A DNA stretch of 47,934 nucleotides, taken from IMG/VR virus record IMGVR_UViG_2778261630_000003; one strand, written 5' to 3'. Below, piece after piece: positions 725 to 7,855 of the stretch (positions are counted from its first letter, which is position 1; each line of letters opens with the position of its first letter). The stretch is from a virus (taxonomy: Duplodnaviria > Heunggongvirae > Uroviricota > Caudoviricetes). A program made the translations under genes and the position numbers. Under the pieces are notes generated by a model. The model saw only the letters and a program-made list of their open reading frames with translations, was not told where the DNA came from and did not search any database.

Positions 725-983
725 TTATGTTATGAATAAATAAATGCTAATGATTTTTGTAAGATAGCTCATTTTATGTCCATAGGTGATGTATGCATTA
801 ATATGATTAATTTGTCTCCTTATAAAAATAAGATTATGTAAATAATAACAAAGGGTGACATTATTAAGTGTTGCTTTTTCTTAGTAAGTTGTTATCCTAC
901 TTAAGGTTGAATGATATTGTATCGAATAAAGTTGCTTATATAGAATTATTTTTATATTATGGCTTATTGAGTTAGTTAATAGG

Positions 984-1481
984 ATGATTGAATCAATGCT
1001 TTCAAATGTAATTTTAAGTGGAGCTATGTCCACGTTATTGGCTGCATTTCTAATTTTTGTGTTTAAGGAGTATATAAAAAGACCACCTAATTTTTCAGGG
1101 GTGTTTGAGATCGAGTGTAAAACGCTAAAATCATCATATAATTCATATGTAAACCTAACTACATTCTATACATTAGTGTTGATTTGTGATAATAACACTA
1201 TAGAAGGACATATTGAAAAAATAAAAGATATCGAAAATGATGGGTATGAAAGAAAATATATTGGCGTGCATCGCAATATTGGCGATGTCAATGGTGTAAT
1301 TAAAAGAAATTACTTAAGACCTAACCATGCTTCGTTGAATATAAAAATGCATGGTGATAATAGGGATTATACTATTATGCTATATTTTAAGAAGGTGAAT
1401 ACGAAAAATATGAAAGGAACTTTTTTATCTACTGCTGCAGATTCTTCTGGAGATGTTAAGTGGCAGCGAAAAAATTTTTAA
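984..1481 (+). CDS. hypothetical small membrane protein (single N-terminal TM helix), low-GC cargo gene
   Basis: 165-aa ORF in ~30% GC block; hydrophobic segment SGAMSTLLAAFLIFVF; 3' end overlaps next ORF by 22 nt (operon-like); no recognisable motif. Confidence 0.45.
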   Translation: MIESMLSNVILSGAMSTLLAAFLIFVFKEYIKRPPNFSGVFEIECKTLKSSYNSYVNLTTFYTLVLICDNNTIEGHIEKIKDIENDGYERKYIGVHRNIGDVNGVIKRNYLRPNHASLNIKMHGDNRDYTIMLYFKKVNTKNMKGTFLSTAADSSGDVKWQRKNF

Positions 1482-2104
1482 TTTATTTACTGTCGTTGCC
1501 ATATTTAATAATGGCTTCGATTATCATAAAGCTTAAAGTTAAAAGTATAATTGATGATTATGAGAAATGTACTACTTATATTTACTGTAACTCGAAGAAA
1601 TATAATAACATTTCTCCTGTTATGATTGATATATTAAGGTTGGCAGAGGATCATCGACAATTATTGCATAGAGGGATTGACCCCATTGCAATTATTAGAA
1701 CTTTTTATCTGAGGATATTTAAAAATATACACCAAGGAGCGAGCACTATAGAACAGCAGTTTGTGAGAACTATAACTAAAAGATACGAAAAAACAATACG
1801 TAGAAAGATAAGAGAGCAGATATTGGCTATATTGATTAGAAATGTATCAACTCCAGATGATATATGTAAGTGTTATCTTTCTTGTTGTTACTATGGCTAT
1901 GGAACTTATGGGATAGATAATCTTTTAAAAAAGAAACAAAATATCAGTGATTTTGATATTGTTGCAATGATTAAATATCCATTCAGGGGAGAAGTTGTTT
2001 CAGTTACAGAGGAACGATTTAAACATAGGTCGCTCTATCTTTCCACTTTATATAAATTAAATGCACAAAGGGATATGATTTTTTTGCGAAAATATAGTGG
2101 GTGA
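1460..2104 (+). CDS. membrane-anchored GT51-family protein (monofunctional peptidoglycan glycosyltransferase-like)
   Basis: GTG start 7 nt after GGAG; N-terminal hydrophobic anchor FLIYLLSLPYLIMASIII; ordered motifs EDHRQLLHRGID, QGASTIEQQFVR, RRKIREQ, YLSCCYYGYGTYGID matching GT51 motifs EDxxFxxHxG, GxSTxTQQ, RKxxE, YLN..FG..G; alternative ATG start at 1511 would remove the anchor. Confidence 0.6.
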   Translation: MAAKKFLIYLLSLPYLIMASIIIKLKVKSIIDDYEKCTTYIYCNSKKYNNISPVMIDILRLAEDHRQLLHRGIDPIAIIRTFYLRIFKNIHQGASTIEQQFVRTITKRYEKTIRRKIREQILAILIRNVSTPDDICKCYLSCCYYGYGTYGIDNLLKKKQNISDFDIVAMIKYPFRGEVVSVTEERFKHRSLYLSTLYKLNAQRDMIFLRKYSG

Positions 2105-2302
2105 TTATGTTAAGTGTATTTTATTATGTGTCAAAAAGTTTAGTCATCTCTGCTTAATGTATAATCGTGAATGTTTTTATTCAGATTTTATGCATGTCAA
2201 GTTGATGAGTGCCGTCGACATAAGATATGGGGATAATGAATAGTTTACAATCGTAAATAATAGAATATCCTGTTAAAAGTGGTTACTTCTCCACGCAGCT
2301 TA

Positions 2303-2324
2303 AACCCGCCGTCGAGCGGGTTTT
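2303..2324 (+). terminator. intrinsic-terminator-like hairpin within a conserved ~45-bp element upstream of the holin gene (copy 1)
   Basis: AAACCCGC-CGTCGA-GCGGGTTTT; the same element recurs at 44835-44858 upstream of the second holin. Confidence 0.5.
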
Positions 2325-2475
2325 GTCGTTTCTGGGTCTGGGGATTCCTTGGTCCTAGCCTATCCCGCAGTTATCCATTAACTCGGCTTCTTTGACGTTT
2401 CCGCTTCTGATTTGCGGTACATGATGTTTCCTCAATTTGCACCTGCTGTATCAGCGAGGTGAGAGATAACTACAA

Positions 2476-3800: not shown

Positions 3801-3821
3801 GCAATAAAATTGACAGTTTAA

Positions 3822-4391
3822 TCAGTTGTCAAATGAATATACGTTAAAGGTATATGTCGACATAATTTCACCAATTACCTCAATACATACACTTTTTTTA
3901 TGAAAATTACTGGGAAATGAACTTAGCTCCTCAAGATATTGCACATAAGTGCTGATATCACTTGCATCACGTTCAAGGAATTTCACTTGACCAAAAGAAG
4001 GAGTTTTAATTCTGGTTCTTTGCTGGATTATATGGATAAAGTGTGTAGTTGGTGAAACTATTACTCTTGAAATATCGGAAGTGATATCTTCTTGAACCTG
4101 CCGATAAAGCAAATCTTTTGGGTAATGATGTTTTATCTCGATGGTTGCAACATTGCCATTATGTTCAGGCGTCAATATCGACTGGTTATAAAGTGATATG
4201 TCAACAGCGCCGATACCGAGTTTTGGATGCTCACTTAAAGCAGTTAGTGTGCTGATTTGATTGATTATAACAACTAACTCATCACGTATTTGTGTTTCAT
4301 GTTTGCGATTGTAGAAGTAGCAATTCAGTTCATTTAACTTTTTATGCATCTTATCGTGACTAATTGCTTCGATCAGTAAATCCTGAATCAT
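3822..4391 (-). CDS. hypothetical protein, low-GC cargo gene; possible PD-(D/E)xK-type nuclease signature
   Basis: ORF open to 4451; preferred start MIQDLL at 4391 (GAGAAAAG upstream); segment GIGAVDIS...(about 20 aa)...ATIEIKHH resembles hhhD / ExK strands of restriction-endonuclease-like fold; ~30% GC. Confidence 0.45.
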   Translation of the reverse strand: MIQDLLIEAISHDKMHKKLNELNCYFYNRKHETQIRDELVVIINQISTLTALSEHPKLGIGAVDISLYNQSILTPEHNGNVATIEIKHHYPKDLLYRQVQEDITSDISRVIVSPTTHFIHIIQQRTRIKTPSFGQVKFLERDASDISTYVQYLEELSSFPSNFHKKSVCIEVIGEIMSTYTFNVYSFDN

Positions 4392-4567
4392 ACTTTTCTC
4401 TGAGTAATCCGAATGGTTGTACGTGACAGTATTGTGCTGGCACGCCATCAATATGTAAAGATATTGTTATATAATAGCGAGATGGCGAAGTATAATTGAT
4501 AAAAAACTGTACAGCCCTGATTGAATGTAATTTGCTATAATCACCTCTAAAATAAAGTGAGGTGTAA

Positions 4568-5023
4568 ATGGACGCTACTTATATTGCTTATGAAACTCTT
4601 GTAGCTAACAGAGATGCTGCATTTTGGGCTAAATTTTCTGCTCTTGTGAGTCTGGCGAGTATTGGAGTTACTTTGTTCGCAGGGATTGTGGGTTTTCTCG
4701 CATTAGGGCAATGGAAAAAACAGTATAATGAAGACAAAAAATTGAAATTGATGGATGCTATCATTGAGTATAATAATACTTTGATTTCTATGCCAAAGAA
4801 TTTAGAAAATGATGAAGGTTATGTTAATAGAAAGTTGATTATCAGAGCCTTTAATGAATTGCAATCTAGGTGCAATATTTATCTATCATCTAACTCAAAT
4901 GATGATATTTCTAAAACCATGGATAATTTACGAGAACTTCAAATGGCTTTCTTGGCCGGAAAGGGTTTTAAATCAGAATTGGCCTTGCTTGCAGGGAAAA
5001 TGTTATATATAGATTTAAAATGA
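4568..5023 (+). CDS. hypothetical single-TM membrane protein, low-GC cargo gene
   Basis: TGcTATAAT extended -10 at 4533-4541, GAGG RBS, ATG 4568; TM helix LVSLASIGVTLFAGIVGFLAL; divergent from 3822-4391. Confidence 0.45.
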   Translation: MDATYIAYETLVANRDAAFWAKFSALVSLASIGVTLFAGIVGFLALGQWKKQYNEDKKLKLMDAIIEYNNTLISMPKNLENDEGYVNRKLIIRAFNELQSRCNIYLSSNSNDDISKTMDNLRELQMAFLAGKGFKSELALLAGKMLYIDLK

Positions 5024-5154
5024 AATAGATTGTCTGGATATTCCATATTATTAATGCTGGTTGAACTAATTATCTTTTTTGATGATTAGTTCTCCGGTAT
5101 TTTTATTTGCGAAGTTATAGATAGAACTATAGTAATAATTTAAGAGGTGATTGG

Positions 5155-6125: not shown

Positions 6126-7855
6126 GCCGGAAATCTTACCCCAACGTAAATGCTGCCAATCAGTATGCCCGGGATGTCGTGCGCGGAAAGATTGTGGCCT
6201 GCCAGTTTGTGATTCAGGCCTGCCAGCGCCATCTTGATGACCTGATGGCGGAAAAAAGTAAGTCGTTTCGTTACCGCTTCGACAAGGACCTGGCTGAACG
6301 GGCCGCCAAATTTATTCAGCTGTTGCCGCACACCAAGGGTGAGTGGGCATTTAAGAGGATGCCCATCACGCTGGAGCCGTGGCAGCTCTTTGTGATCTGC
6401 TGCGCGTTTGGCTGGGTCAATAAAGGCTCCCGGCTGCGCCGCTTCCGTGAGGTGTATACCGAAATCCCCCGTAAGAACGGCAAATCGGCAATCTCTGCCG
6501 GTGTCGCCCTGTATTGTTTTGCCTGTGATAACGAGTTCGGCGCGGAAGTGTATTCCGGTGCCACGACGGAAAAACAGGCATGGGAAGTCTTTCGTCCGGC
6601 AAGACTGATGTGTAAACGCACACCCATGCTGACGGAAGCGTTCGGGATTGAGGTTAACGCCTCAAACATGAATCGTCCGGAGGATGGTGCGCGTTTTGAA
6701 CCGCTGATCGGTAACCCCGGTGATGGTTCATCACCCCACTGTGCGGTGGTGGATGAATATCACGAGCACGCCACAGATGCGCTTTACACCACGATGCTTA
6801 CCGGGATGGGGGCGCGACGTCAGCCACTGATGTGGGCTATCACTACCGCCGGGTACAACATTGAGGGGCCGTGCTACGACAAACGGCGGGAAGTCATCGA
6901 GATGCTCAACGGCTCGGTGCCTAACGATGAACTGTTCGGGATCATCTATACCGTTGATGAAGGTGACGACTGGACCGACCCGCAGGTGCTGGAAAAAGCC
7001 AATCCAAATATTGGCGTGTCGGTTTATCGCGAATTTTTGTTAAGTCAGCAGCAGCGTGCGAAAAATAACGCCCGTCTGGCAAACGTCTTTAAAACAAAAC
7101 ACCTCAATATCTGGGTGTCGGCGCGTTCGGCGTATTTCAACCTGGTGAGCTGGCAGAGCTGCGAGGATAAATCACTGACCCTTGAGCAGTTCGAGGGGCA
7201 GCCGTGCATTCTGGCCTTTGACCTGGCGCGTAAGCTGGATATGAACAGCATGGCGCGACTTTATACCCGCGAGATTGACGGTAAAACGCATTACTACAGT
7301 GTGGCCCCGCGTTTCTGGGTACCGTATGACACGGTGTACAGCGTCGAGAAAAATGAAGATCGACGGACAGCCGAACGCTTTCAGAAATGGGTGGAAATGG
7401 GCGTTCTGACCGTTACCGATGGTGCGGAGGTGGATTATCGCTACATCCTCGAGGAGGCCAAAGCGGCGAACAAAATCAGCCCGGTCAGTGAGTCACCCAT
7501 CGACCCCTTCGGGGCGACCGGGTTGTCACATGACCTTGCTGATGAAGACCTGAACCCCATCACTATCATTCAGAACTACACCAACATGTCCGACCCGATG
7601 AAAGAGCTGGAAGCGGCAATTGAATCGGGGCGCTTTCATCATGATGGCAATCCCATCATGACCTGGTGTATCGGCAACGTGGTCGGCAAAACCATTCCGG
7701 GTAACGATGATGTGGTGAAGCCCGTCAAAGAGCAGGCGGAAAACAAAATCGATGGTGCAGTTGCGCTGATTATGGCGGTTGGCAGAGCCATGCTGTACGA
7801 GAAAGAAGACACGTTGTCTGACCACATTGAGTCCTATGGGATCCGCTCGCTTTAA
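6122..7855 (+). CDS. terminase large subunit
   Basis: 577 aa; ATPase and nuclease regions typical of HK97-type TerL; follows TerS. Confidence 0.9.

What the first reader, a model, noticed from the sequence alone, without database searches (positions are those of the whole stretch)
3822..5023. Second low-GC cargo: divergent gene pair with a possible PD-(D/E)xK nuclease signature between Rz/Rz1 and HNH/terminase
Immediately after the spanin genes the GC content drops to about 30% for about 1.2 kb. Two genes are transcribed divergently from a 115-bp AT-rich intergenic region with TATAAT-like boxes on both strands. The minus-strand protein (about 189 aa) has a GIGAVDIS strand followed about 20 residues later by ATIEIKHH, resembling the hhhD and ExK core of restriction-endonuclease-like nucleases. 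The plus-strand protein (151 aa) has one TM helix. This slot, where lambda carries bor, frequently hosts defence or exclusion cargo in lambdoid phages, so this may be an uncharacterised nuclease-based abortive-infection or exclusion pair.
Basis: inference. Interest (0 to 1): 0.65.

Follow-up and report, generated by a model that had tools for sequence, protein, structure and literature searches.

The report
Prophage cargo: stand-alone nuclease, unrelated membrane gene
A 1.35-kb AT-rich insert between the lysis and packaging genes of an E. coli prophage carries an uncharacterised small nuclease of the restriction-enzyme fold, probably an anti-phage gene, next to an unrelated membrane-protein gene that is a separate cargo module and not its partner.

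Summary
Window 3801-5154 is 33% GC against 49-55% in the flanks. It fills a slot that is only 26 bp in an 'empty' relative. It carries a minus-strand 189-aa gene (3822-4391) and a plus-strand 151-aa one-TM gene (4568-5023).

The 'pair' reading is not supported:
- In 5426 E. coli genomes the nuclease gene occurs in 80, nearly always with a different 111-aa gene, and the 151-aa gene occurs in 1.
- A remnant of the 111-aa gene's 3' end survives at about 4480-4517.
- The nuclease is the only gene in the slot in Proteus-type prophages.
- The 151-aa gene occurs without the nuclease in Enterobacter.
- No methyltransferase is consistently linked.

Distant relatives sit inside type I R-M operons and beside WYL regulators. 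The best reading is an autonomous, lysogen-expressed defence nuclease of a new family. Its function and its way of sparing host DNA are untested.

The parts
3801..5154 (.). AT-rich cargo insert (33.4% GC) between the Rz1 stop (3800) and the HNH start (5155). The same junction is 26 bp in an empty-slot relative.
3822..4391 (-). 189-aa PD-(D/E)xK-type nuclease gene, antisense to the phage late operon. The true start is the ATG at 4391, not the TTG at 4451.
4296..4304 (-). Codons K30 (4302-4304) and E32 (4296-4298), in helix alpha1. This is the family-invariant N-x-K-x-E motif and the candidate motif I.
4200..4202 (-). Codon D64 (GAC), immediately before strand beta2. Motif II, invariant.
4131..4139 (-). 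Codons E85 (4137-4139) and K87 (4131-4133), in strand beta3. Motif III (ExK), invariant.
4431..4459 (-). Promoter-like TTTACA-17-CACAAT upstream of the nuclease gene, also present in the other E. coli alleles. In other genera a perfect TATAAT lies about 40 nt before the ATG.
4480..4517 (-). Remnant of the 3' end of the 111-aa gene that neighbours the nuclease in other E. coli prophages. Similarity to those prophages ends at about 4517.
4533..4541 (+). Extended -10-like TGcTATAAT upstream of the 151-aa gene (TACAAT in the Enterobacter homologue).
4542..4565 (+). Hairpin CACCTC-N11-GAGGTG that pairs the Shine-Dalgarno sequence of the 151-aa gene (-8.3 kcal/mol, z -3.3). An equivalent hairpin is present in Enterobacter.
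4568..5023 (+). 151-aa protein: one N-terminal TM helix followed by a helical bundle, which the positive charges after the TM suggest is cytoplasmic. PHROG 6169, unknown function. A separate cargo module.
5024..5154 (.). 27.5% GC spacer at the right end of the insert. Similarity to other E. coli prophages resumes at the HNH start codon (5155).

Best explanation
The region holds two independent single-gene cargo modules ('morons'), not a two-gene system.

Module 1 (3822-4391, minus strand) encodes a 189-aa enzyme of the PD-(D/E)xK restriction-endonuclease-like fold. It belongs to a small family that no domain database describes. Inferred steps:
- It is transcribed from its own promoter, antisense to the late operon, and is therefore made in the lysogen.
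- It acts as a Mg2+-dependent DNA endonuclease, with E32, D64, E85 and K87 forming the active site.
- It cuts DNA of superinfecting phages or other invading DNA, which benefits both prophage and host.
- It needs no dedicated partner. How host DNA is spared is unknown. Candidates are sequence, structure or modification specificity, or low expression.

Module 2 (4568-5023, plus strand) encodes an inner-membrane protein with one TM helix and a four-helix bundle that the charge distribution suggests is cytoplasmic. It replaced the nuclease's usual 111-aa neighbour in this lineage. Its function is unknown; a membrane-level superinfection-exclusion role is the best guess.

What is shown: cargo status, the fold, the invariant triad, the independence of the modules, and the defence-island association of distant relatives.

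What is inferred: catalysis, expression in the lysogen, and the anti-phage role.
For: Cargo status:
- GC is 0.33 against about 0.5 in the flanks.
- The empty slot is 26 bp in E700025.
- The slot holds different cargo in other prophages, including KilA-N, DUF2441, DUF6979 and GrlR-like genes, or nothing.

Nuclease identity:
- The AF2 model has pLDDT 84 and pTM 0.84, with elements H29-46, E50-53, E65-68, E80-89, H97-107 and E117-127.
- K30, E32, D64, E85 and K87 are the only invariant residues across 33 homologues.
- Family member P0079 passes the Pfam PDDEXK_4 gathering score (24.1 against 22.3 bits).
- Other members give weak hits, all to PD-(D/E)xK families: HSDR_N, PDDEXK_9, DUF234, DpnII-MboI, SduA at 1e-5 and REase_II.

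Selection: dN/dS is 0.16-0.29 against other E. coli alleles, and 59-72% identical orthologues occur in five other genera.

Autonomy of the nuclease gene:
- It is the sole gene between HNH and the spanin in L073.
- Its neighbours differ: a 111-aa gene in E. coli, a 75-aa gene in Enterobacter, a 103-aa secreted protein in Proteus, and none of these in 23 IMG/VR loci.
- A TATAAT about 40 nt upstream is conserved in three genera.
- It is always antisense to the lysis and terminase genes.

No linked methyltransferase: the Q-holin slot varies among carriers (MTase, metallophosphoesterase, caspase+TIR, KwaB-like, nothing), and the nin-region MTase of GF60 is frameshifted.

Defence association: distant members lie directly upstream of, or inside, type I R-M operons alongside PDDEXK_4 and REase-ARP genes, or beside WYL/WCX, cpYpsA and SocA_Panacea genes.

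Independence of the 151-aa gene.
Against: - No biochemical or phenotypic data exist for any family member.
- The window protein itself hits no Pfam, NCBIfam or PADLOC model.
- Foldseek against the PDB gave nothing significant.
- A profile comparison with a small PDDEXK_4 alignment was not significant.
- An isolated Shedu nuclease core is toxic in E. coli (Gu et al., bioRxiv 10.1101/2023.08.10.552793, read). An unregulated 189-aa nuclease therefore needs some unexplained safeguard.
- In E. coli the nuclease is almost always next to the acidic 111-aa gene (79 and 80 genomes), which could still modulate it.
- Expression in lysogens was not tested.
- One distant member (Acinetobacter) sits among housekeeping genes.
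Confidence: 0.5

Rival explanations
1. The nuclease and the 151-aa membrane protein form one two-gene abortive-infection or exclusion system. One version has the membrane protein sensing infection or tethering the nuclease, a split analogue of the membrane-bound nuclease SNIPE.
For: The genes are adjacent and divergent, in one AT-rich insert. The same arrangement recurs at about 99% identity in GF60 and in two IMG/VR contigs. SNIPE shows that membrane anchoring can keep a defence nuclease from attacking host DNA (PMC13190303). The charge distribution of the 151-aa protein suggests the same N-out, C-in orientation as SNIPE.
Against: The genes co-occur in 1 of 80 E. coli carriers and 2 of 53 IMG/VR loci. 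The 151-aa gene occurs without the nuclease in Enterobacter and, as a distant homologue, in Salmonella phage 118970_sal3. The nuclease occurs alone in the slot. The junction keeps a remnant of the displaced 111-aa gene. Each gene carries its own -10 box.
Confidence: 0.06
2. The nuclease is the toxin or effector of a toxin-antitoxin-like or immunity pair. Its inhibitor is the small acidic protein encoded just upstream: the 111-aa protein (pI 4.6) in E. coli and the 75-aa protein (pI 4.7) in Enterobacter. The window would then carry an orphaned toxin.
For: The nuclease gene and the 111-aa gene occur in 80 and 79 of 5426 E. coli genomes, and every sampled carrier except GF60 has both. In the same upstream, co-directional position Enterobacter has a 75-aa acidic protein. 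An isolated PD-(D/E)xK core can be toxic.
Against: The two upstream proteins are unrelated, and the third (Proteus) has a signal peptide. A 90-100 bp gap with its own promoter-like sites separates the genes. The nuclease is intact with no upstream partner in the window, in GF60, and in the solitary Proteus-type loci. The 111-aa gene also occurs without the nuclease in Enterobacter.
Confidence: 0.1
3. It is an orphan type II-like restriction endonuclease. Host DNA would be protected in trans by a methyltransferase elsewhere, either a prophage methyltransferase or the host's own Dam or Dcm, which I recall are widespread in enterobacteria (not checked here).
For: The best structural matches are type II enzymes. 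Single members give weak hits to REase_II and DpnII-MboI models. L002 and L003 carry a DNA methyltransferase in the nearby Q-holin slot. The close clade is confined to Enterobacterales.
Against: No methyltransferase is consistently linked. The nin-region methyltransferase of GF60 is frameshifted while its nuclease is intact. No significant sequence match to any restriction-enzyme family was found for the window protein.
Confidence: 0.12
4. It is a selfish free-standing homing-type endonuclease, or a nuclease that serves the phage's own lytic cycle (recombination, host-DNA degradation or counter-defence), rather than a host-protective gene.
For: The distribution is patchy, at a fixed intergenic position with empty alleles in related phages. 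PD-(D/E)xK homing endonucleases exist (own knowledge: I-Ssp6803I).
Against: The gene sits in the same slot of prophages whose flanking lysis and terminase genes are unrelated (P27-type TerS with HNH, Terminase_2, ParB-like), which does not fit sequence-specific homing. It is always antisense to the late operon. A RusA resolvase is already present in the GF60 relative. Distant relatives lie in R-M and WYL contexts rather than in phages. No sequenced phage in INPHARED carries it.
Confidence: 0.1

Closest known systems
Type II restriction endonucleases of the PD-(D/E)xK fold (best structural match R.SwaI, PDB 5tgq; also BglI, EcoRV, HincII)
   Different: No detectable sequence similarity. No adjacent or consistently linked methyltransferase. 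Any recognition site is unknown.
Shedu (SduA, DUF4263), a single-gene defence nuclease
   Same: A single-gene PD-(D/E)xK nuclease found in defence islands and prophages. It has the same motif order: E (I), D (II), ExK (III). One distant family member hits the PADLOC SduA model at 1e-5 over the catalytic core.
   Different: SduA has N-terminal sensor and linker domains that hold the nuclease inactive. The 189-aa protein is core only. The window protein and 32 of 33 family members do not hit SduA models. The motif IV glutamine is not conserved across the family.
Pfam PDDEXK_4 (PF14281), often embedded in type I R-M loci
   Same: One family member (P0079) passes the gathering score. Distant members sit next to PDDEXK_4 genes in or beside type I R-M operons.
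   Different: The window protein does not match the model. A profile-profile comparison with three PDDEXK_4 neighbours was not significant.
Lambdoid phage morons: lambda bor (own knowledge) and HK97 gp15 (cited in PMC10884400)
   Same: An AT-rich, independently transcribed extra gene in the late region of a lambdoid prophage, in a slot that is empty in relatives. The nuclease gene is antisense to the late operon, as I recall bor is after Rz/Rz1 in lambda (own knowledge, not checked here). gp15 is a small inner-membrane exclusion protein, so it is an analogue in kind for the 151-aa protein.
   Different: No sequence or fold relationship to Bor or gp15. Function has not been demonstrated.
SNIPE (PD-lambda-1), a membrane-bound GIY-YIG defence nuclease (PMC13190303)
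   Same: The concept of a TM anchor plus a nuclease that cuts incoming phage DNA. The SNIPE anchor is N-out and single-pass, the orientation that charge distribution suggests for the 151-aa protein.
   Different: SNIPE is one polypeptide with DUF4041 and a GIY-YIG domain. Here the two features are on separate, non-co-inherited genes, and the nuclease has a different fold.

Membership tests
PD-(D/E)xK nuclease superfamily | alpha-beta-beta-beta-alpha-beta core fold | tested here: met
   AF2 model with pLDDT 84.2 and pTM 0.84. Elements H29-46, E50-53, E65-68, E80-89, H97-107, E117-127.
PD-(D/E)xK nuclease superfamily | Conserved D at the start of strand 2 and (D/E)xK in strand 3, plus an acidic residue in helix 1 | tested here: met
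   D64, E85, K87 and E32 (with K30) are the only invariant residues in 33 homologues down to about 20% identity, and they lie on the expected elements.
PD-(D/E)xK nuclease superfamily | Structural similarity to solved members | tested here: inconclusive
PD-(D/E)xK nuclease superfamily | Significant match to a curated family model of the clan | tested here: inconclusive
   The window protein gives no hit. Family member P0079 passes PDDEXK_4 (24.1 against 22.3 bits). Other members give only sub-threshold hits to clan families. hhalign against three PDDEXK_4 proteins was not significant.
PD-(D/E)xK nuclease superfamily | Metal-dependent phosphodiester cleavage | not testable with these tools
   Needs purified protein and D64A, E85A and K87A controls.
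Type II restriction-modification system | Cognate methyltransferase encoded next to the endonuclease | tested here: not met
   There is none in the insert. Within +/-4.5 kb, carriers have a methyltransferase, a metallophosphoesterase, caspase+TIR, a KwaB-like gene or nothing. The solitary-gene loci have none.
Shedu (SduA) | Match to the DUF4263/SduA model | tested here: not met
   No PADLOC or Pfam hit for the window protein. Only 1 of 33 family members hits SduA, at 1e-5.
Shedu (SduA) | N-terminal regulatory or sensor domain ahead of the nuclease core | tested here: not met
   The protein is 189 aa and the core starts at about residue 28. Only two short helices precede it. Compare the Shedu architecture read.
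Two-gene defence pair (nuclease + 151-aa TM protein) | Co-inheritance of the two genes across related elements | tested here: not met
   The pair occurs in 1 of 80 E. coli carriers and 2 of 53 IMG/VR loci. Each gene is found without the other.
Type II toxin-antitoxin module | Conserved adjacent antitoxin gene, tightly coupled to the toxin gene | tested here: not met
   The upstream neighbours are unrelated (111 aa, 75 aa, 103 aa secreted) or absent. A 90-100 bp gap separates the genes.
Prophage moron (independently transcribed accessory gene) | Present or absent between conserved genes, with deviant composition and its own promoter and terminator | tested here: met
   Presence/absence and composition are met. 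Conserved -10 boxes travel with each gene. In Enterobacter, GC-rich hairpins followed by T runs flank the 151-aa gene in the sequence. Promoter activity itself was not testable.

The most novel reading that the evidence does not exclude
The 189-aa protein would be a minimal, sensor-less defence nuclease that tells self from non-self by an unconventional route. One route is to rely on the host's own Dam or Dcm methylation, so that it needs no methyltransferase of its own. Another is for this lineage to have recruited the 151-aa membrane protein, making a split SNIPE-like nuclease that cuts DNA at the point of injection.
Probability: 0.1. Interest if true: 0.75.

Novelty: new member of a known kind. 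Interest (0 to 1): 0.4.

Why it matters
If the nuclease protects lysogens, it adds a very small single-gene system (570 bp) to the anti-phage repertoire. It also raises a sharp question: how does a bare PD-(D/E)xK core, with no methyltransferase and no sensor domain, avoid killing its host?

The locus also documents that the Rz1-HNH junction of these P27-terminase-type prophages is a mix-and-match cargo hotspot. Three unrelated small genes occur there in every pairwise combination. That pattern is useful for mining further candidates.

If the gene has no phenotype, this is simply one more uncharacterised moron.

Tried and rejected
- Pfam, PADLOC and NCBIfam on the window proteins gave no hits. 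PHROGs gave only unknown-function families 12494 and 6169.
- Sequence searches of the PDB, with the single protein and with the family profile, found nothing.
- Foldseek against the PDB gave no hit below E 0.03.
- The afdb50 library was unavailable.
- tblastn of the nuclease against 50,697 phage genomes gave no match.
- hhalign of the family against three PDDEXK_4 neighbour proteins was not significant (probability 0.5%).
- A literature search for the RefSeq accessions and PHROG ids found no papers. The DefensePredictor supplements contain none of the accessions.
- The search for related loci with the full 33-sequence alignment failed for lack of a conserved stretch. The narrower alignment found only 4 species-representative genomes.
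- The count of 535 E. coli records came from flank matches. It was replaced by gene-only searches.
- The type II R-M, Shedu, toxin-antitoxin and homing-endonuclease readings were considered and rated low, for the reasons in the membership table and the rival explanations.

Full report
**1. The observation**

The window drops from about 0.49-0.55 GC to 0.334 over 3801-5154. This is exactly the interval between the Rz1 stop (3800) and the HNH start (5155).

Two ORFs lie there. The minus-strand ORF runs 3822-4451 from a TTG. All homologues start at the ATG at 4391 (M1-I2 invariant), and RefSeq annotates 570 bp, so the protein is 189 aa. The plus-strand ORF is 4568-5023 (151 aa).

The divergent intergenic region is therefore 176 bp, not 115 bp.

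The GIGAVDIS and ATIEIKHH strings are present at residues 58-65 and 82-89. The 151-aa protein has one strong hydrophobic segment.

Three perfect TATAAT boxes lie on the + strand and only near matches on the - strand. The generic promoter scan is not above shuffled expectation.

A related E. coli prophage (strain E700025) has only 26 bp between Rz1 and HNH. Other relatives carry inserts of other sizes and contents, or nothing. The interval is therefore real cargo in a variable slot.

**2. The minus-strand protein is a PD-(D/E)xK-type nuclease of an undescribed family**

It matches no Pfam, PADLOC or NCBIfam model. Its only match is PHROG 12494, of unknown function.

Close homologues (59-95% identity) are confined to Enterobacterales. 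An exhaustive profile search of 1.8 billion representatives found only 42 proteins. A second profile search found 65, including members from Flavobacteriaceae and Acinetobacter.

Across 33 members down to about 20% identity, the only invariant residues are K30, E32, D64, E85 and K87.

The AlphaFold2 model (pLDDT 84.2, pTM 0.84) gives H29-46, E50-53, E65-68, E80-89, H97-107 and E117-127. This is the canonical alpha-beta-beta-beta-alpha-beta core. E32 lies in helix 1, D64 lies just before strand 2, and E85-x-K87 lies in strand 3. The motif order matches motifs I-III as defined for Shedu (E204, D249, E264/K266; Gu et al., bioRxiv 10.1101/2023.08.10.552793).

Some sequence-level support comes through other family members. 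P0079 passes the PDDEXK_4 gathering score. Others give weak hits, all to PD-(D/E)xK families, plus SduA (1e-5) and REase_II.

The gene is under purifying selection (dN/dS 0.16-0.29 within E. coli). I rate the nuclease-fold assignment at about 0.85.

**3. The two genes are not a pair**

Gene-only searches of 5426 complete E. coli genomes find:
- the nuclease gene in 80 genomes;
- the 151-aa gene in 1 genome, strain GF60, which has the window's arrangement;
- a different, co-directional 111-aa gene in 79 genomes. It is next to the nuclease in every sampled carrier except GF60.

Aligning the window with such a locus shows similarity running through the nuclease gene and its 5' region into the last about 35 bp of the 111-aa gene. 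It then breaks at about 4517. The 151-aa cassette therefore replaced the 111-aa gene in this lineage.

In Enterobacter the 151-aa gene (72% identity) occurs with the 111-aa gene and without the nuclease. A 36%-identical homologue follows Rz in Salmonella phage 118970_sal3.

The Enterobacter nuclease orthologue has an unrelated 75-aa gene upstream. The Proteus orthologue has a secreted 103-aa protein upstream. The Yersinia orthologue has other neighbours.

The 53 IMG/VR loci break down as follows:
- 2 have nuclease + 151-aa gene;
- 23 have nuclease + 111-aa gene, and 3 more have a truncated nuclease with the 111-aa gene;
- 1 has the 75-aa gene;
- 23 have none of these;
- 1 is at a contig edge and cannot be judged.

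In L073 the nuclease is the only gene between HNH and the spanin.

Wherever the flanks are recognisable, the nuclease is antisense to the lysis and terminase genes. A perfect TATAAT about 40 nt upstream of its ATG is conserved in Enterobacter, Yersinia and Citrobacter.

The similarity around the 151-aa cassette starts about 45 bp upstream of its ATG. That stretch includes a -10 box and a hairpin that pairs the Shine-Dalgarno sequence. The similarity ends just after the stop codon.

Each gene is therefore an autonomous module.

**4. What the nuclease probably does**

No methyltransferase is consistently linked. The nearby Q-holin slot holds a methyltransferase, a 1050-aa metallophosphoesterase, caspase+TIR, a KwaB-like gene or nothing. 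The nin-region methyltransferase of GF60 is frameshifted.

Context of distant relatives:
- One lies directly upstream of HsdM-HsdS-PDDEXK_4-HsdR (Salinimicrobium).
- One lies inside HsdM-HsdS-...-REase-ARP-PDDEXK_4-HsdR, with a WYL regulator nearby.
- One lies beside WYL/WCX, cpYpsA and SocA_Panacea genes.
- Another is followed by a PDDEXK_4 gene.
- An Acinetobacter member, fused to DUF6508, sits among housekeeping genes.

Three lines of evidence point to a defence nuclease expressed in the lysogen: the antisense orientation with its own promoter, the position in a prophage cargo hotspot, and the association of relatives with defence loci. This is inference (about 0.5).

The open problem is self-protection. 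An isolated Shedu nuclease core is toxic in E. coli. SNIPE without its membrane anchor attacks host DNA (PMC13190303). Yet this 189-aa core is stably carried with no constant partner.

**5. The 151-aa protein**

The positive charges after the TM segment suggest that the C-terminal domain is cytoplasmic (sequence).

It matches PHROG 6169, of unknown function. A membrane-level exclusion role, like that of HK97 gp15 (cited in PMC10884400), is a guess and nothing more.

**6. Comparison with known systems, and verdict**

The protein has the fold and motifs of a restriction-type nuclease. It fails the membership tests for:
- a type II R-M system (no methyltransferase);
- Shedu (no model hit, no regulatory domain);
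- a toxin-antitoxin module (no conserved partner);
- the proposed two-gene system (no co-inheritance).

It is best filed as a new family within the PD-(D/E)xK superfamily, carried as a single-gene prophage moron.

The finding is real. The nuclease inference is right and the pairing is wrong. Interest is moderate, because candidate single-gene nucleases in prophage hotspots are common. This one has not been described, and the lack of any visible safeguard is the interesting point.

Noticed in passing
window 725-2475: A first low-GC island (31% GC) lies between the Q antiterminator and the holin. It holds a 165-aa TM protein (984-1481) and an overlapping 214-aa protein (1460-2104) with a GT51 peptidoglycan glycosyltransferase domain (Pfam Transgly 1.6e-23; NCBIfam PBP1A-family 1.3e-23). 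That is an unusual cargo for a prophage. In related E. coli prophages the same slot holds a DNA methyltransferase, a 1050-aa metallophosphoesterase, caspase+TIR, a KwaB-like gene or nothing.
   Followed up: partly
window 4542-4565: The Shine-Dalgarno sequence (GAGGTG) of the 151-aa gene is paired in a hairpin, CACCTC-N11-GAGGTG (-8.3 kcal/mol, z -3.3). The Enterobacter homologue keeps an equivalent hairpin with sequence changes (-9.6 kcal/mol, z -3.5). This may be translational control.
   Followed up: partly
L003 4791-5126 (minus strand); remnant at window 4480-4517: A 111-aa acidic protein (pI 4.6, no family hit) is the usual neighbour of the nuclease in E. coli (79 genomes). It also occurs next to the 151-aa gene in Enterobacter. 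The nuclease, the 151-aa gene and the 111-aa gene thus occur in all three pairwise combinations in this slot.
   Followed up: partly
L081, L082, L083 (IMG/VR): Only the first 38 codons of the nuclease gene remain. They are followed directly by a second copy of TerL/TerS/HNH, which suggests a rearrangement or an assembly junction inside the nuclease gene.
   Followed up: no
L028 6001-12651; L029 1149-12074; L017 795-1487: Distant relatives of the nuclease (Salinimicrobium and metagenomes) sit directly upstream of or inside type I R-M operons and are repeatedly followed by a PDDEXK_4 protein. This may be a two-nuclease module embedded in type I R-M loci.
   Followed up: partly
P0088-P0095, P0101; L027 6001-6936: Acinetobacter members of the family are about 310 aa long, with a C-terminal DUF6508 (PF20118) domain. 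The one locus examined is among housekeeping genes.
   Followed up: partly
L073 6180-6794 (minus strand): A 204-aa protein lies upstream of the holin in a Proteus-type prophage. After its TM segment it has 'AWHALKQNYK', which resembles 'GQWKKQYNED' of the 151-aa protein. It may be a distant relative in the other cargo slot.
   Followed up: no
L013 5080-5802 (minus strand) and 6602-7222: In Yersinia frederiksenii the nuclease orthologue is flanked by a divergent 240-aa protein and a co-directional 206-aa protein. Neither has a Pfam or PADLOC hit.
   Followed up: partly
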